DNA of 64,000 bases from Mizuhopecten yessoensis. Lineage: Eukaryota. Made by a program: the position numbers. The stretch spans positions 420,324 to 484,323 of the forward strand of contig NW_018408679.1 in assembly GCF_002113885.1 (NCBI RefSeq), in the 5' to 3' direction. Of this stretch, positions 3,001-51,000 are shown piece after piece (the stretch's first letter is position 1; the number at the start of each line of letters is the position of its first letter).

Positions 3001-6000
3001 AACGAAAACAAACTTGCTTTCTGTGTTTGCATACTTTTGTCAAGCTTTGTAATGAACCTATGTGTCAAGAAAGTTGACTGATCAGTTAGATATTTCAGGC
3101 AGATGTTGAAATGATCACTACAATGGACTATACTACTTATTATAAATGGATTGTTGACACAGTCTCAGCAACCAACCTCTTGTTGTGACAAATACCGAGA
3201 AATCAAGATGAGAAAGACAACTAAAACTTCAATCGATATTGTCGGACAATGTCTTTAATATCTATAATAATGATATGTATGAAGTATCCTATTGATTCAA
3301 CATGATTTGCTACTGACAATTACTGACATTTTTCACTTGCTCGGTTGGACAAGTAATAGCGACATTTAACTTGTACACGAGGTAAGACTTGCTCTAGGCA
3401 GTCGGGCATTAGTGCTTATTGTCAAGTCCTGGAGGAGACACATCAGAAGAGGGGATATAGCATGAAAATCTCTCTATCTACGTATGATTACGAAAGACAA
3501 AGACCCAATGTGATAACATTGTGATATTCGTAATGACTTACACTGTTCCATGTTTTTATTTAACTTGGCCTCGGAGAGCTTTTCCTGCAGTTTATCCATC
3601 TTGGGTTTATGGTTCATACTGTTTGCCGTAACCCTTTGAGACAAAACCGCCAATGGGATGGACAGTACTCGTACTAAAATGGTAGCTGCAAATAATAAGA
3701 AAACATTGAATGAAAGCAAATATGATGGCTATACAATACTTGAAACTTTTAACTAGACAAATATAGAAAGCTTTTCGAGAACATACAGATGTGTCTCCTT
3801 TAAATCCTTAATGATGCTTTGCTTTATTTGACCTCTTACCTGAGGTGAAGCTCATGGTGACCTAAATACTGACCAGTGCACACCATCTGTTGGTGATGCA
3901 TCTGCATATTTTATATATAATACTGCAAGTTTCCGTAAGTAATATTTATCGAGTTAGAACTTGTAGCCTGGAGAATATACATGTACCATAAGAAGAATTA
4001 TTATATGACTGGTGCTAATTCCCAGCCCTGATTGGAGGAGCGACGTCATGTGACGAGTCTGTAAATATGTTATAGACCTCTTTCTATGAAAAGAATAGAA
4101 AAGTGTCACAGACTGCTACTAAAAATAGGCCTAGGTAATTTCCCAGCCAGTCTGTAAATCTGTTACAAATTACACTACTGAATTCAACTACAAATGAATT
4201 GTCTGATCAAATTCTGAACTATGTGATGTTATTGATGATGTCGATTGTGCAAATTGTGTTTATTTTAAATTAAATATGACATGATTTGATGAATTGTGTT
4301 TGTTATTTTGTATTTAAGCCCTTCAATCTGTGATTCCAAATTGGTCTATGCAATCCATGTGGTTATGACTTGAAAAATGATTAATCCATTGTAAAATGAC
4401 ATATAATAAAACAATTGTGGACTTCAGTTTCAGTCTATCCCTGATTTAAGGACCTGGTCTAAACAATATTCACAGAGGCCGAATATTGTTCAGATCAGGT
4501 CCGTCAATCAGGGAAAGACCTCACCTGAGGTCTATAATTGTATATTGTGGTTCTGTATCTTTTATGACGCCAGGTCATGATCTAATTTGTTTTTGAAATT
4601 TTAAGCAAAATATTCAAAAAAGATTAGCGCGAAGCAATACATAATATGCCCATCATAATTCAACATACCTGGTACATCAATTAGTCCAATAAAACAGCAT
4701 GGAATGCATGTAGTATTGCATTAAGGAAACCAAGGGTAATAAGTCTATTAATTATGGTAAGATAACTGTGATTACAATCAACCCACTGAATATTACTTTG
4801 ATATTGAGAGGACACCATTTCGGAATTTGAATAAAGGGACATAACTCTGTAACTTAAAGTCAGATAATGGTAGTTATCAAAAACATCTGAGGTCTCGCGG
4901 TAATTCACCTTCTCATGAAGTTTGAAGTTAATCTGTTGAAAATAACTTGAAGTATAAAGTCGACACTGTTTTAGCAATTCATTAAAAGGGGCATATCTCA
5001 GTATATAACTGTCAGATAAATCCTACCTAACTGGCCATAGGCTGTCAGATCAGAGGTAAATTCTACCTTACTGGCCACAGGCTGTCTGATCAGAGGTAAA
5101 TTCAACCTTACTAGCCATAGGCTGTCAGATCAGAGATAAATCCTCCCTTACTGACCATAGGCTGTCAGATCAGAGTTAAATCCTACCTTACTGACCATAG
5201 ACTGTCAGATCAGAGGTAACTTCTACCTTACTTACCAAAGACTGTCAGATCAGAGGTAAATGCTACCTTACTGGCCATAGGCTGTCAGATCAGAAGTAAC
5301 TTCTACCTTACTGGCCATAGGCTGTCAGATAAGAGGTAAATCCTACCTTACTGGCCATAGGCTGTCAGATCAGAAGTAACTTCTACCTTACTGGCCATAG
5401 GCTGCCAGATAAGAGATAAATCCTACCTTACTGACCATAGGCTGTCAGAACAGAGGTAAATTCTACCTTACTGGCCACAGGCTGTCAGATCAGAGGTAAA
5501 TTCTATCTTACTGGCCAAAAGCTGTCAGATCAGAGGTAAATCATACCTTACTGGCCATAGGCTGTCAGATAAGAGGTAAATCATACCTTACTGGCCATAG
5601 GCTGTCAGATAAGAGGTAAATCCTAACTTACTGGCCATAGGCTGTCAGATCAGAAGTAAATTCTACCTTATTGGCCATAGGCTGTCAGATAAGAGGCAAA
5701 TCCTACCTTACTGGCCATAGGCTGTCAGATCAGAGGTAAATCCTGCCTTACTGGCCATAGGCTGTCAGATCAGAAGTAAATTCTACCTTACTGGCCATAG
5801 GCTGTCAGATAAGAGGTAAATCCTACCTTACTGGCCATAGGCTGTCAGATCAGAGGTAAATCCTACCTTACTGGCCATAGGCTGTCAGATCTGAGATAAA
5901 TTTTACCTTACTGGCCACAGGCTGTCAGATCAGAGGTAAATTCTACCTTACTGACCATAGGCTGTCAGAACAGAGGTAAATTCTACCTTATTGGCCATAG

Positions 6001-48000: not shown

Positions 48001-51000
48001 TTCTACCTACATATTTTTCTTTAAAATTAGGAATAATGGGAGGTTATTTCCTTGGAGAAGTACAGATTAAAAACCAAAATCCTGTTATTCTCTTGGATAT
48101 AATATCTATATTCTCAGCCAAAAATCCTACCTCTTCATTCACTTTGACTAGGAATCCCTGGTCATATATCTGTCCACCTTGCTCAGCATAGAAACTTGTC
48201 CGGTCCAGAAGAATACCACATTCCCTTCCCGATGTTACCTCGTCGACGAACTGTTTACTGTGACGGATAGCCAACACCTTACCCATTGTAGATTCGAACT
48301 CTGAGACAAAATAATTGTTATCTTATTATCATTCTGATTGGAAATCGTGAAATCACTGCATGTAGGATGTCATCATTCAATGGAAATATTAATAGATTTG
48401 TTACAATTTTTGTACAAAAAAATAATTATAACAATATTTTTATTACAATAGCTTTATATTGAAATGTATATTATAATGGAGGACTTTAAAATGTAAAAGA
48501 ATCTTTTTTAAACCGATTCTCCAATCATCTTCAAACAGATTTAATTATGAATTCTATCAAACACTTTTATAGATCTGATTAGGGAATTAACTTTCATCAC
48601 AACCATTCTGCATTTGATACAACAAAAGTTGGACATACTGTAGTTTCCCTCCTCATCAGCGGTGTAGTTGTACTTGGGCGAGTCATCAGTTGGGGACAGA
48701 CCCTTCTTCTGTAGATCACTAATGGCGTGTACATCCAGATTGATCTGGTCATCAACAGTACAACCTGATCCCTGGGACATCAACTGTAGGACAAACTCAT
48801 CATCAGTACTACACACAAAAGGTCACATCAGTGTTACACATAAAAGGTCACATCAGTTTTACACACAAAAGGTCACATCAGTTTTACACACAAAAGGTCA
48901 TTCAAAGGTCATATCAGTTTCTAGACAGAAAATTATCCAATGAGTCACATCAATATATACATATAGAAGCGTTTGCCTAAATTACAACTAAAACATGTAT
49001 ATAAACAATATAGATTAGAAGCAAGTTTATATATAAAACACATTCTATGAGAAATTACATATATTATATTCAATTGTAAATACATAATTTTTTCATGTAG
49101 GTTGTAAATGTTTCTCCTCCATCACAGGGAAGAAATGTCCTAGGAAACTGAATAGTTTTCTATTCTCTCGCATTTTTATAACAAATGAACATGACCCAAA
49201 CCTGAGCTGCTTTCTTGCACTCCTCATAAGTATCCATGTCAACCATCAGTCCTTTCTCTTCTGCCATTAACTGGGTCAAATCCACCGGGAATCCATAGGT
49301 ATCGTACAACCGCCATGCAACCTCCCCTGTTACGAAGTAAACACATCATAAGTATTGTACAGTTGCTAAGTAACCTCCCCTGTTACCAAGTAACCCTCAT
49401 CATAGGTATTGTACAGTTGCTAAGTAACCTCCCCTGTTACCAAGTAAACACGTCATAGGTATTGTACAGTTGCTAAGTAACCTCTCATGTTACCAAGTAA
49501 CCTCATCATATGTATTGTACAGTTGCTAAGTAACCTCCCCTGTTACCAAGTAACCCTCATCATAGGTATCATACAGACACCATCCAACCTCCCCTGTTAC
49601 GAAGTAAACACATCATAGGTATTGTAGACGCCAAGCAACCTCCCCTGTTACCAAGTAAACACATCATAGGTATTGTACAGTTGCCAAGTAACCTCCCCTG
49701 TTACCAAGTAAACACATCATAGATATTGTACAGTTGCTAAGCAAATGCCAATGTTACCAAGTAATAACATCAAAGGTATCACACAGATGCTAATTTATAA
49801 TATGATAAAAAATCTTTATTGAGGACAGGAGAAATAGTTACAATATGTGCTTCATAAAAATTGCCTCCATACCTGCCACTTCCCCTAGTCTTTATCAATT
49901 TATAGCTGGAAAATCCACACATGAGGAATACTAAAGTGTATAGGAAGCTAATCAACAAGGATTTTCTGTTTTATTTGAACAGTAGTTATTGACTTTTCCC
50001 TTGTTACCAAAGACACATACCTGGTAAGGTTTTGGTGTCCCCGAGTTTGCCTATAGTTCTCTCCAACAGTCGCCGACCACGTGACAAGGTCTTCAGGAAC
50101 TGCTCCTCCTCCTCATTGATTATATTTTTTAACTGAAAATAAATGCAAATAATTCTACAATAATCCAAGACATAACAAGAGATCCCAGAGGGATCATGGC
50201 GGCCACCTTTGTACCATCTTCATTAGTTCTTTGTCAGTTCGATCTTTTCTCTTCTTTCCTCTAATCTGCTTGATCGAGTCATGTTAACAGTAAATGCACC
50301 TTGAGGTAACTTTTGATCTAAACTTAATACTGATGTGCATGAAAGCCAACCTTCAAAGAGAGTTTGTCATTGTGATAACTCTGGTGTACTGATATCATTA
50401 CCATCAATATAAAAGTCTATTAGAAATGACAAACTCTATAACATGCTAGTTGGCATTAATGTTGATACAGATGATATAAACTGAAGCAGATTTAAAATAC
50501 GGGGTACATAATATCATAGATTTTTTTTTGATATATTCAGTATCGATTCAAATCTAAAATGTCTATATTATGAACGTTTGTCCAATAAGTAGAACCACCA
50601 TCTCCAAGGGAGGGTCAGCCATATAACATTATCATTAGGAGTCATAATAGTGTTGACGTTATAATCAGGCCATGGCATTTATAGCTGATATGAATGCCAT
50701 CTGAATTTGGTAGTGTAACATATGAGTATTGCCATACATAGACCATAAGTAACAACTACACAACAATGACACCCACTCAGGGAGAAGACATTACCTCTTC
50801 TGGATCTTTTGTCACTTCTGGGAATGCATCTCCCTAGAAACATAAATATGTACATATCACTCAATTATTTTTTTATTAGATGCAAGTATACTTCAATTTA
50901 AATAAAGATATTTTTTTACAGTGTAAAAGTAATGCCCTAACAAGATTATAGAGAAGATCCAGTACTTATATATAGGATCTTACATGAGTTTCCATTTCAT

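What the first reader, a model, noticed from the sequence alone, without database searches (positions are those of the whole stretch)
5010..49790. Window-wide pattern: local 25-53-bp amplifications seeded at gene landmarks
Seen: at least nine unrelated arrays (40, 33, 47, 48, 51, ~41, 40, 25 and 53 bp). Five of them copy a readable single-copy template: two donors, one acceptor, one stop codon and one coding segment. Others start within about 100 bp of an exon (5010-6990, 48800-48920; degenerate ones at 43240-43400 and 52420-52690). The arrays at AARS1 and FBXL8 extend away from the exon and leave the coding copy intact. Inference: an active microhomology-driven or rolling-circle-like duplication process with a narrow unit size, whose survivors cluster at exon edges. 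It could generate new splice sites or introns.
Basis: inference. Interest (0 to 1): 0.65.

Follow-up and report, generated by a model that had tools for sequence, protein, structure and literature searches.

The report
Exon-edge minisatellites in scallop genes
Several short tandem-repeat arrays in this scallop DNA began as copies of an exon edge or a stop codon; the same pattern is known as "mirages" in amphioxus and occurs in a few human genes, so this is a new example and not a new mechanism.

Summary
The window is scallop DNA: its AARS1 exons are 97-100% identical to the Mizuhopecten yessoensis protein. I do not take it for human.

The arrays are real (TRF). Of about 21 short tandem arrays, four demonstrably copy a conserved coding landmark of a host gene:
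- the AARS1 exon-15 donor (40 bp x 25)
- the AARS1 exon-10 acceptor (53 bp x 9)
- the AARS1 exon-6 acceptor (about 76 bp, degenerate)
- the FBXL8-like stop codon (about 37 bp x 7)

A fifth, at the exon-18 acceptor, is borderline. One array copies a coding segment of a dead piggyBac-like transposase.

No second "donor" template could be verified. Arrays A1, A3, A4 and A8 have no detectable template.

About 0.85 arrays would span a landmark by chance. I observed 4-5 (p about 0.009-0.001). The window was picked post hoc, and one stricter test gives p = 0.13.

The pattern matches "mirage" minisatellites of amphioxus and the human F7 IVS7 VNTR (PMC3087553, PMC1557585).

Best reading: short tandem duplications that straddle an exon edge, then expand by unequal exchange or slippage. 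Rolling-circle origin and a "narrow" unit size are not supported.

Verdict: a new member of a known kind.

The parts
38863..58530 (-). AARS1 (cytoplasmic alanine--tRNA ligase) coding span, 22 coding exons
   Evidence: tblastn of P0001/P0002 (Mizuhopecten yessoensis) exon by exon, 97-100% in the exon cores. Exon lengths sum to 2895 nt = 965 codons. Exons were never joined.
44620..45651 (-). A7: 40-bp array, authentic copy + 25 copies. The first copy is the last 18 nt of exon 15 plus the donor plus 22 nt of intron 15.
   Evidence: TRF 40 x 25.5, 85%. The authentic copy matches the column majority at 12/18 exon and 21/22 intron positions. GT is kept in 16/25 copies and the exact 9-mer around the donor in 6/25. 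The exon tail RAVFDE is the same residue in 58-73 of 73 AlaRS proteins. The array fills 1014 of 1294 nt of intron 15.
49291..49793 (-). A9: 53-bp array, 8 intronic copies + the authentic copy (17 nt of intron 9, the acceptor, and the first 33-36 nt of exon 10)
   Evidence: TRF 53 x 9.4, 84%. Copies are 34/47 to 45/50 identical to the authentic copy. AG is kept in 6/8. tblastn finds pseudo-copies of the exon head. Residues AWRLYDTYG are the same in 56-73 of 73 AlaRS proteins.
52337..52687 (-). A10: degenerate array of about 76-bp units. About 4 intronic copies of the exon-6 acceptor plus exon head, and the authentic copy.
   Evidence: The exon-6 head aligns to 52537-52489 (score 15, 0/1000 null) and to 52687-52644 (score 12, 14/1000 null). 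A third copy is not significant (260/1000). The unbiased scan gives a cluster at 52336-52565 with score 28.
43214..43420 (-). A6: degenerate 20/58-bp array ending at the exon-18 acceptor. Borderline as a boundary copy.
   Evidence: TRF rows at 43241-43292 and 43312-43351. A segment covering the acceptor plus 5 nt of exon aligns 58 nt upstream with score 19; the null 99.9th percentile is 16 and the null maximum is 20. A direct test against the 20-bp unit is not significant, 254/2000.
48801..48900 (-). A8: 25-bp x 4 array in intron 10, ending 18 nt upstream of the exon-11 acceptor. No template found.
   Evidence: TRF. Distance 17.5 nt. Similarity to the acceptor/exon head is at chance, 1001/2000.
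28748..29006 (-). A5: array of about 37-bp units. The authentic copy (last about 23 nt of the CDS, the stop codon, and about 14 nt of 3'UTR) is followed by 6 copies in the 3'UTR.
   Evidence: Six copies, 69-95% identical, each above all 1000 null scores. TRF rows at 28788-29004.
28981..30183 (-). FBXL8-like F-box gene, a single 400-codon ORF plus stop
   Evidence: Pfam F-box-like at 2.7e-14. Orthologs are named F-box/LRR-repeat protein 8-like or 3-like. The C-terminal ...EPWVVGVEEGD, ending at the same point, is shared by 9 of the 14 aligned relatives (3 scallop-like proteins, 2 oysters, 2 abalones, 2 clams); a limpet protein ends at the same point with two substitutions.
5017..6966 (-). A1: 40-bp array in intron 3 of the OXA1-like gene, split by a 408-nt insertion (6301-6708). 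No template found.
   Evidence: TRF 40 x 32.1 and x 6.4, 89%. Degenerate copies reach 7041, about 44 nt from the donor. No similarity to the donor region (1271/2000 and 3319/5000). The inserted element recurs at 41386-41682, 87% identical.
2673..11302 (-). OXA1-like (60KD_IMP) gene, first five coding exons; it continues beyond the window start
   Evidence: tblastn of P0218. P0218 matches Pfam 60KD_IMP at 2.7e-24.
19021..19583 (-). A2: 47-bp x 12 array inside the coding sequence of the transposase remnant
   Evidence: TRF 47 x 12.1, 93%. The first unit is read as transposase coding sequence. Pfam DDE_Tnp_1_7 positions 25-98 lie upstream and 138-213 downstream.
17814..20117 (-). piggyBac-like transposase remnant (a broken gene, given as one part)
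   Evidence: DDE_Tnp_1_7 in four separate pieces. The frame is broken by at least three stops and two frame changes, besides the array (counted).
23424..26546 (.). A3: 48-bp x 65 array, with no gene landmark and no template in its flanks
   Evidence: TRF 97%. 54 consecutive copies are identical at all 48 columns. Flank tests are at chance.
27683..27829 (.). A4: 48-bp x 3.1 array next to a dispersed short repeat. No template found.
   Evidence: TRF 98%. Flank tests are at chance. The neighbouring 27833-27924 recurs at 35577-35668.
16194..16265 (+). Perfect 34-bp two-copy duplication with 4 nt of junction microhomology. It starts at a donor-like motif, but no exon is supported.
   Evidence: The upstream ORF 16065-16196 has no Pfam family and no homolog.
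62152..63919 (+). LINE-like retroelement (endonuclease + reverse transcriptase), broken, running towards the window end. It is the only virus-like stretch I found and is described only.
   Evidence: Pfam Exo_endo_phos_2 and RVT_1. At least two stops and two frame changes (counted).

Best explanation
Four, perhaps five, of about 21 short tandem arrays in this Yesso-scallop window are 'mirage'-type minisatellites.

**How they arise**
1. A 37-76-bp segment straddling a coding landmark of a host gene was duplicated in tandem. The landmarks are the AARS1 exon-15 donor, the exon-10 and exon-6 acceptors, possibly the exon-18 acceptor, and the FBXL8-like stop codon.
2. The pair then grew and was reshuffled by unequal exchange and/or replication slippage.
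3. The copy that is part of the mRNA stays under purifying selection.
4. The other copies lie in the intron or 3'UTR and drift. Some keep a splice signal or stop codon and some lose it.

**The other arrays**
The remaining arrays are ordinary minisatellites of the same size class. They lie in introns, in intergenic DNA and in a dead transposon. The seeding process therefore acts generally and does not need a gene landmark.

**Shown**
- The arrays exist.
- The terminal copy is the authentic exon edge.
- The exon copy is the ancestral one.
- The arrays have a higher-order internal structure.
- Young perfect two-copy duplications are present.

**Inferred**
- The molecular mechanism (slippage or microhomology-mediated seeding followed by unequal exchange).
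- That splicing ignores the pseudo-sites.
- That landmarks are truly over-represented genome-wide.
For: **The arrays exist:** TRF.

**The authentic copy belongs to the array**
- A7: 12/18 exon and 21/22 intron positions match the column majority.
- A9: 8 copies, 72-90% identical to the acceptor plus exon head.
- A10: scores 15 and 12 against null distributions, 0/1000 and 14/1000.
- A5: 6 copies, each 0/1000.

**Direction of copying**
- The exon parts encode residues shared by most of 73 AlaRS proteins, e.g. R680, A681, F683 and E685 in 73/73, and W412, Y415, T417, Y418 and G419 in 73/73.
- The FBXL8-like C-terminus and stop position are shared by scallops, oysters, abalones and clams.

**Turnover by unequal exchange**
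- A7 identity peaks at lags 3, 6 and 9.
- A7 edge copies score 32-33/40 against 35-39/40 inside the array.
- In A9 the copies most like the exon (44/48 and 45/50) lie distal, behind a block of four diverged copies.
- TRF reports 186/233-bp and 160-bp superperiods.

**Ongoing seeding:** perfect 24-, 25- and 34-bp duplications with 2, 0 and 4 nt of microhomology.

**Enrichment:** 0.85 expected against 4-5 of 21 observed, p = 0.009 to 0.001. In AARS1, 5 of 6 arrays lie within 25 nt of a splice boundary, p = 0.0013. An unbiased self-scan found no comparable degenerate array deep in AARS1 introns.

**Precedent**
- Amphioxus 'mirages' at both 5' and 3' exon boundaries, with concerted evolution inside the cluster and excluded boundary copies (PMC3087553, section 16 read; PMC3902484, passage read).
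- Human F7 IVS7, IFI6 (6-16), CBS, LMNB2 and PDGF minisatellites whose first monomer spans the exon-intron boundary (PMC1557585, passages read).
Against: - The window was flagged because it shows the pattern, so every p-value is post hoc.
- The strictest test is not significant: TRF-detected arrays only, spanning a boundary, 2 of 5, p = 0.13.
- A6 is borderline: score 19 against a null maximum of 20, and 254/2000 in a direct test.
- A1, A3, A4 and A8 show no template.
- There are no RNA data, so use or non-use of the pseudo-sites is unknown. P0001 is a predicted protein.
- No second haplotype or species was available, so polymorphism and age are unknown.
- UTR exons and unannotated genes were not mapped, so the landmark list is incomplete.
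- The 54 identical copies in A3 could be smoothed by the assembly.
- Sequence alone does not separate slippage, microhomology-mediated repair and unequal exchange.
Confidence: 0.65

Rival explanations
1. Chance placement. These are ordinary intronic and UTR minisatellites with no preference for gene landmarks. A compact gene with 42 splice boundaries and short introns will show some overlaps, and the window was selected for them.
For: - The TRF-only spanning test gives p = 0.13.
- 16 or 17 of 21 arrays span no landmark.
- Arrays also sit in intergenic DNA and in a dead transposon.
- The selection of the window was post hoc.
Against: - 0.85 expected against 4-5 observed, p = 0.009 to 0.001.
- 5 of 6 AARS1 arrays lie within 25 nt of a boundary, p = 0.0013.
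- An unbiased scan finds no equally strong array deep in AARS1 introns except a 152-bp transposon-like repeat.
- The same clustering has been noted repeatedly in amphioxus genes (PMC3087553, PMC3902484).
Confidence: 0.25
2. Rolling-circle or small-circle origin. A short circular copy of the segment is replicated into a concatemer, which is then inserted at its source.
For: Only indirect evidence: A3 has 54 identical copies in a row, and several arrays have many copies of one unit.
Against: - Perfect two-copy duplications exist, so arrays can start as simple duplications.
- A7 and A9 are mosaics of variant units with higher-order periodicity and diverged edges.
- Unit sizes span 16-91 bp.
- I found no rolling-circle replication gene among the ORFs scanned.
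- Circles of 25-53 bp are very small for double-stranded DNA (general knowledge, not tested).
Confidence: 0.05
3. Transposon-borne or dispersed satellite arrays that happened to insert beside exons.
For: - The window is rich in short dispersed elements.
- A4 abuts one of them.
- A1, A3, A4 and A8 have no local template.
- From recall, not from a call: bivalve Helitron-type elements are reported to carry satellite-like arrays.
Against: - For A5, A7, A9 and A10 the unit contains conserved host coding sequence, so these arrays were made in place.
- No array unit recurs elsewhere in the window.
- The short element next to A6 has two other copies without the array.
Confidence: 0.1
4. Selected function. 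Arrays of reiterated splice signals or G-rich intron ends are kept because they tune splicing or transcript processing of the host gene.
For: - 16/25 pseudo-donors and 6/8 pseudo-acceptors keep the dinucleotide.
- All nine arrays tested have G > C on the sense strand.
- The F7 repeats contain G triplets, a known class of splicing modulators (PMC1557585, passage read).
Against: - The column holding the T of GT is among the most variable in A7 (share 0.64), so the signal is not conserved.
- In F7, deleting or adding repeats did not change splice-site choice (PMC1557585, section 10 passage).
- The same kind of array occurs in a dead transposon and in intergenic DNA.
Confidence: 0.1
5. Assembly artefact. 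The arrays, or their lengths, are produced or smoothed by the assembler.
For: A3's 54 identical copies. There are no reads to check against.
Against: - Most arrays carry many unit-specific substitutions in ordered patterns.
- A1 is interrupted by a separate insertion.
- The exon model around the arrays is intact.
Confidence: 0.05

Closest known systems
Amphioxus 'mirage' minisatellites (Adh3, troponin C, globins BflGb6/BflGb9, PGBD5)
   Same: - Tandem, minisatellite-like duplications whose terminal unit spans an intron/exon boundary.
- Both 5' and 3' boundaries are affected.
- Many, but not all, copies keep AG/GT.
- Copies are homogenised inside the cluster and diverged at its boundary.
- They have been proposed as raw material for new introns.

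Sources: PMC3087553, section 16 read in full; PMC3902484, passage read.
   Different: - The host is a mollusc, not a cephalochordate.
- Three to four occur in one housekeeping gene.
- One array sits on a stop codon/3'UTR edge, which the mirage description does not cover.
- Length polymorphism and undisturbed splicing, both shown in amphioxus, are untested here.
- The original paper (Canestro et al. 2002, cited as ref. 68 in PMC3087553) is not held. The alignments in the supplements were not seen.
Human F7 intron-7 37-bp VNTR and similar arrays in IFI6 (6-16), CBS intron 13, LMNB2 and PDGF
   Same: The first monomer spans the exon-intron boundary, so the donor is reiterated in the intron. In F7 it consists of the last 4 bp of exon 7 plus 33 bp of intron. 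A7 here has a 40-bp unit and 25 pseudo-copies, with 18 nt of exon in register. Source: PMC1557585, abstract and introduction passages read.
   Different: - The human cases are donor-side only in that account; here acceptor-side arrays predominate.
- In F7 the pseudo-sites are identical in sequence; here only 6/25 keep the exact donor 9-mer.
- Use of the most upstream site was shown experimentally in F7 and is not known here.
Intron gain by internal tandem duplication (Rogers model; Hellsten et al. 2011, PMC3265369; potato RdRp, PMC4974935; variable internal tandem repeats at exon-intron boundaries, PMC2812944; Zhuo 2007 and Gao & Lynch 2009 as cited in PMC3087553)
   Same: A tandem duplication that contains AG|GT supplies spare splice signals.
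   Different: - No new intron is demonstrated in this window. All arrays lie in existing introns or in a UTR.
- What I saw: for PMC3265369 and PMC4974935, only the search listing and the start of the abstract; for PMC2812944, passages.
- Zhuo 2007 is not held.

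Membership tests
Mirage-type (exon-boundary) minisatellite | Head-to-tail array of minisatellite-size units (10-160 bp in the amphioxus cases) | tested here: met
   TRF gives 40 x 25.5, 53 x 9.4 and 32-65-bp rows. The array of about 76-bp units comes from alignment.
Mirage-type (exon-boundary) minisatellite | One terminal unit spans an exon-intron boundary, so that the splice signal is reiterated in the intron | tested here: met
   Met for A7 (donor), A9 (acceptor) and A10 (acceptor). 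A6 is inconclusive. Not met for A1 and A8.
Mirage-type (exon-boundary) minisatellite | The exon-embedded copy is the original and the intronic copies are derived | tested here: met
   The exon parts encode residues shared by 56-73 of 73 AlaRS proteins at most positions.
Mirage-type (exon-boundary) minisatellite | Concerted evolution inside the cluster, with boundary copies excluded from homogenisation | tested here: met
   A7 edge copies score 32-33/40 against 35-39/40 inside, with lag-3/6/9 identity peaks. A9 has a block of four near-identical diverged copies.
Mirage-type (exon-boundary) minisatellite | Regular splicing is not disturbed; the authentic site is used | tested here: inconclusive
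   The 22-exon model using the authentic sites adds up to the 965 codons of the database protein P0001. That protein is a prediction, and no RNA data were available.
Mirage-type (exon-boundary) minisatellite | Copy-number instability between haplotypes or individuals | not testable with these tools
   Only one sequence of the locus is available.
Rolling-circle (Helitron-type) element carrying a satellite array | Dispersed copies of the array-bearing unit with shared element termini, or a Rep/helicase gene nearby | tested here: not met
   No array unit recurs in the window. No such domain was found in the ORFs scanned. A genome-wide check was not possible.
New intron created by tandem duplication | An intron whose two ends are copies of one duplicated exonic segment, at a position that lacks an intron in relatives | not tested
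   Intron positions of relatives could not be read, because no genomic DNA of other species was available. All arrays lie in introns flanked by conserved exon ends.

The most novel reading that the evidence does not exclude
Scallop genes, like amphioxus genes, are subject to a duplication process that is targeted to exon edges and not merely tolerated there. One example would be transcription- or splicing-coupled breaks or R-loops at junctions with a G-rich sense strand, repaired with short tandem duplications. In that case mirages would be a genome-wide, lineage-spanning source of intron growth, spare splice sites and occasionally new introns or 3' ends.
Probability: 0.2. Interest if true: 0.7.

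Novelty: new member of a known kind. Interest (0 to 1): 0.4.

Why it matters
The authors who describe mirage minisatellites call their origin unclear (PMC3087553, section 16). So far they look like a peculiarity of amphioxus plus a few single human genes.

Finding three to four of them in one essential gene of a mollusc, and a stop-codon version next door, suggests the phenomenon is wider. It may be linked to very polymorphic marine invertebrate genomes.

It also gives a concrete locus where one can study descriptively how introns grow, how the spliceosome ignores dozens of look-alike sites, and whether exon edges are duplication hotspots. Here the arrays make up 53-78% of three AARS1 introns.

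As it stands, this is a well-documented example and not a new principle.

Tried and rejected
- **Second donor template.** The ORF 16065-16196 before the 34-bp duplication has no Pfam family and no homolog (14 candidates, none at E <= 0.001). Rejected as unsupported.
- **A1 as a donor mirage.** Degenerate copies reach 7041. The 44 nt between them and the donor, and the exon tail, are at chance.
- **A8 as a copy of the exon-11 acceptor.** At chance.
- **Templates in the flanks of A3 and A4.** At chance.
- **A6 as the tail of the neighbouring tRNA-like short element.** Rejected: two other copies of that element lack the array, and the array lies on the element's head side.
- **Selection against pseudo-donors.** The GT column is variable, but not uniquely so. 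No conclusion.
- **Known RNA families and tRNA genes.** None found.
- **Further virus-like genes.** Ten more ORFs gave no Pfam family.
- **Strict-scoring search for exon-6 copies.** It failed before a softer scoring scheme found them.
- **Papers not held.** Canestro 2002 and Zhuo 2007.
- **Report of such arrays in molluscs.** None found in four literature searches. The one mollusc hit, an abalone TSSK1-like gene, has an intronic 27-bp minisatellite that is not said to touch an exon.

Full report
**Source and gene map**

The window has no N. It is 37% G+C with CpG at 0.47 of expectation.

An AARS1 exon finds alanine--tRNA ligase of the Yesso scallop Mizuhopecten yessoensis at 98% identity. tblastn of that protein (P0001, 965 aa) against the window gives 22 pieces on the minus strand, from 58530 to 38866, with the exon cores 97-100% identical. 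I therefore take the window for scallop and not for human, and nothing was held back on that ground.

I worked the splice model out exon by exon from the separate matches and the flanking GT/AG. The exon lengths add up to 2895 nt, which is 965 codons. I left out the step of joining the exons into one sequence. The model therefore rests on the piecewise matches and on that sum.

The other genes all lie on the minus strand:
- An FBXL8-like F-box gene, one 400-codon ORF at 30183-28981.
- The first five coding exons of an OXA1-like 60KD_IMP gene, 11302-2673.
- A piggyBac-like transposase remnant at 17.8-20.1 kb.

A LINE-like endonuclease/reverse-transcriptase stretch lies on the plus strand at 62.15-63.92 kb. 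It is the only virus-like stretch I found, and I only describe it. Its frame is broken by at least two stops and two frame changes. The transposase remnant is broken by at least three stops, two frame changes and one tandem array (counts).

**The arrays**

| Array | Position | Unit and copies (identity) |
|---|---|---|
| A1 | 5017-6300 + 6709-6966 | 40 bp |
| - | 16194-16265 | 34 bp x 2.1 |
| A2 | 19021-19583 | 47 bp x 12.1 |
| A3 | 23424-26546 | 48 bp x 64.9 (97%) |
| A4 | 27683-27829 | 48 bp x 3.1 |
| A5 | 28788-29004 | 32-65-bp rows |
| A6 | 43241-43351 | about 20 bp |
| A7 | 44620-45638 | 40 bp x 25.5 (85%) |
| A8 | 48801-48900 | 25 bp x 4 |
| A9 | 49294-49793 | 53 bp x 9.4 (84%) |
| A10 | 52420-52690 | missed by TRF |

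- A1 is a single array split by a 408-nt insertion. That insertion has a second copy at 41386-41682.
- A self-BLAST finds no array unit anywhere else in the window. In that sense the arrays are unrelated to one another and local.

**Which arrays copy a landmark**

A7, the exon-15 donor:
- Laid out in 40-nt register from 18 nt before the donor, the authentic exon-intron junction is row 0 of 26.
- It matches the column majority of the other 25 rows at 12 of 18 exon positions and 21 of 22 intron positions.
- GT is kept in 16 of the 25 downstream copies. The exact 9-mer around the donor is kept in 6.

A9, the exon-10 acceptor:
- Eight intronic copies match the authentic segment, which is 17 nt of intron, the acceptor and the first 33-36 nt of exon 10. 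Identity runs from 34/47 to 45/50.
- AG is kept in 6 of 8.
- tblastn even reports two of the copies as weak matches to the exon's peptide.

A10, the exon-6 acceptor:
- With strict scoring nothing was found.
- With scoring suited to about 65% identity, the exon-6 head aligns to 52537-52489 (score 15, 0 of 1000 null stretches as good) and to 52687-52644 (score 12, 14 of 1000).
- A third copy is not significant on its own (260 of 1000).
- The spacing is about 76 nt.

A5, the FBXL8-like stop codon:
- Six copies of the last about 23 coding nt, the stop codon and about 14 nt of 3'UTR follow the authentic one. They are 69-95% identical, and each scores above all 1000 null scores.

A6, the exon-18 acceptor:
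- An unbiased scan shows that the segment covering the acceptor plus 5 nt of exon matches a copy 58 nt upstream with score 19. The null 99.9th percentile is 16, and the maximum of 12,710 null windows is 20.
- A direct test against the 20-bp unit is not significant, 254 of 2000.
- I call this array borderline.

Arrays with no template:
- A8 ends 18 nt before the exon-11 acceptor and shows no similarity to it (1001 of 2000).
- A1's degenerate copies reach 7041, about 44 nt from the OXA1-like exon-3 donor. Neither the exon tail nor the 44 nt in between resemble the unit (1271 of 2000; 3319 of 5000).
- A3 and A4 have no template in their flanks.

The second donor:
- The 34-bp duplication starts at a donor-like motif.
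- The ORF before it has no Pfam family and no homolog, so a second donor is not supported.

A2, the transposase coding segment:
- A2's first unit is read as transposase coding sequence.
- The Pfam profile is covered at positions 25-98 before the array and 138-213 after it.
- The A2 row used TRF's printed unit as its probe. I draw nothing from that row.

**Direction of copying**

The exon parts of A7, A9 and A10 encode residues that most of 73 full-length AlaRS proteins share:
- R680, A681, F683 and E685 are the same in 73 of 73.
- W412, Y415, T417, Y418 and G419 are the same in 73 of 73.
- Y279 is the same in 73, G281 in 72 and G284 in 71.

The FBXL8-like C-terminus ...EPWVVGVEEGD, ending at the same point, is found in 9 of the 14 aligned relatives: three scallop-like proteins, two oysters, two abalones and two clams. 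A limpet protein ends at the same point with two substitutions. The other four (P0125, P0126, a whelk and a brachiopod) end differently.

The coding copies are therefore the originals, and the intronic or UTR copies derive from them.

That the arrays 'extend away from the exon' needs no special mechanism. Any tandem duplication that straddles a boundary and leaves the gene working looks like this.

**Internal structure**

- A7 shows identity peaks at lags of 3, 6 and 9 units (0.862, 0.879 and 0.873, against 0.837-0.860 at the other lags). Its two edge copies are the most diverged: 32-33 of 40 against 35-39 inside.
- In A9 the two copies most like the exon (44/48 and 45/50) lie far from it. A block of four near-identical diverged copies lies between them and the exon.
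- TRF reports superperiods of 186/233 bp in A2 and 160 bp in A9.
- A3 has 54 consecutive copies identical at all 48 columns.

This is the signature of turnover by unequal exchange or slippage inside the array. It does not look like growth from the exon copy outward, nor like a single burst.

The ages differ: about 67% identity in A10, 84-89% in A9, A7 and A1, and 97-100% in A3.

Three isolated perfect two-copy duplications of 24, 25 and 34 bp carry 2, 0 and 4 nt of junction microhomology. This is compatible with microhomology-mediated seeding, but three cases are too few to prove it.

Unit sizes run from 16 to 91 bp, and there are repeats of 146-158 bp as well. That is the ordinary minisatellite range and not a narrow class.

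All nine arrays tested have more G than C on the sense strand, from +0.04 to +0.83. I note this only as a lead.

**Is it more than chance?**

Within AARS1, I collapsed each array to one unit and placed the units at random, discarding seeds that fell wholly inside an exon.

| Array set | Statistic | Observed | Simulations as extreme | p |
|---|---|---|---|---|
| TRF-detected | span a splice boundary | 2 of 5 | 6497 of 50,000 | 0.13 |
| TRF-detected | lie within 25 nt | 4 of 5 | 241 of 50,000 | 0.005 |
| TRF-detected + A10 | span a splice boundary | 3 of 6 | 1822 of 50,000 | 0.036 |
| TRF-detected + A10 | lie within 25 nt | 5 of 6 | 67 of 50,000 | 0.0013 |

A10 was found by looking near an exon, so I scanned the whole window with one and the same sensitivity. 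No other degenerate array of comparable strength lies deep in an AARS1 intron, apart from a 152-bp transposon-like repeat.

For the whole window I used 21 arrays with 16-91-bp units and 56 coding landmarks. About 0.85 arrays are expected to span a landmark. I observe 4, or 5 with A6. P(4 or more) = 0.009 and P(5 or more) = 0.001.

Caveats:
- The window was chosen because it shows the pattern.
- The OXA1-like exon bounds are approximate.
- UTR exons and unannotated genes are not in the landmark list.

**What is known**

- Units are 10-160 bp across loci.
- Many, but not all, copies keep AG/GT.
- Evolution is concerted inside the cluster and excludes its boundary copies.
- Copy number differs between haplotypes.
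- Splicing is not disturbed.
- They give a model in which such repeats yield new introns, and they call the generating mechanism unclear (PMC3087553, section 16 read in full).

The PGBD5 paper adds amphioxus Adh, troponin C and PGBD5 (PMC3902484, one passage read).

[quoted passage not shown] For F7 they show that only the most upstream donor is used (PMC1557585, abstract, introduction and results passages read).

De Grassi and Ciccarelli report that variable internal tandem repeats at an exon-intron boundary can form novel introns (PMC2812944, passages read).

My four searches found no report of such arrays in molluscs. This covers only the library held. The original mirage paper and Zhuo et al. 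2007 are not held, and the supplements were not seen.

**Verdict**

What is there is a set of ordinary minisatellites. Four, perhaps five, of them are mirage-type arrays seeded on conserved coding landmarks of AARS1 and the FBXL8-like gene.

- The stop-codon array is a small extension of the known pattern.
- The taxon is new.
- The density in one essential gene is notable: the arrays fill 78%, 67% and about 53% of introns 15, 9 and 5.
- The mechanism I commit to is a short tandem duplication followed by unequal exchange or slippage, with purifying selection holding the expressed copy. I put this at about 0.65.
- Whether exon edges are true hotspots cannot be settled from one window.

Noticed in passing
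62152-63919 (+), running towards the window end: LINE-like retroelement with endonuclease (Exo_endo_phos_2) and reverse transcriptase (RVT_1) domains. Its frame is broken by at least two stops and two frame changes. It is the only virus-like stretch I found and is described only.
   Followed up: partly
17814-20117 (-): piggyBac-like transposase remnant. DDE_Tnp_1_7 is found in four separate pieces. It is broken by at least three stops, two frame changes and the 47-bp array.
   Followed up: partly
8686-8817, 8974-9088, 43428-43563; also 31146-31475; 27833-27924 ~ 35577-35668: Copies of short dispersed elements. The first family looks tRNA-derived by eye, but ARAGORN calls no tRNA gene.
   Followed up: partly
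6301-6708, similar to 41386-41682: A dispersed element of about 300-400 nt is inserted inside array A1; 6421-6713 is 87% identical to 41386-41682. A1 is therefore older than this insertion.
   Followed up: partly
23585-26170 approx. (core of A3): 54 consecutive 48-bp copies are identical at every column. This is either a very recent expansion or smoothing by the assembly.
   Followed up: partly
516-1093; 55553-55837; 33331-33645: Longer tandem repeats of 146, 152 and about 158 bp. The last two are related to each other (about 76% identical, opposite strands) and look like parts of a transposon.
   Followed up: no
15201-15795: A local repeat with copies 67 nt apart (score 33) that TRF did not report. 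It lies in intergenic DNA.
   Followed up: no
58789-59205; 42313-42518: Inverted repeats with 150-nt arms (82% complementary) and 88-nt arms (90%). They look like hairpins or miniature transposons. The first lies just upstream of the AARS1 start.
   Followed up: no
A1, A2, A3, A5-A10 (coordinates as in parts): All nine arrays tested have more G than C on the sense strand. The skew is strongest in A5 (+0.83) and A7 (+0.40), against about +0.04 for the whole window.
   Followed up: partly
38374-38423: A perfect 25-bp two-copy duplication lies about 440 nt downstream of the AARS1 stop codon, probably in the 3'UTR. It has no junction microhomology.
   Followed up: partly
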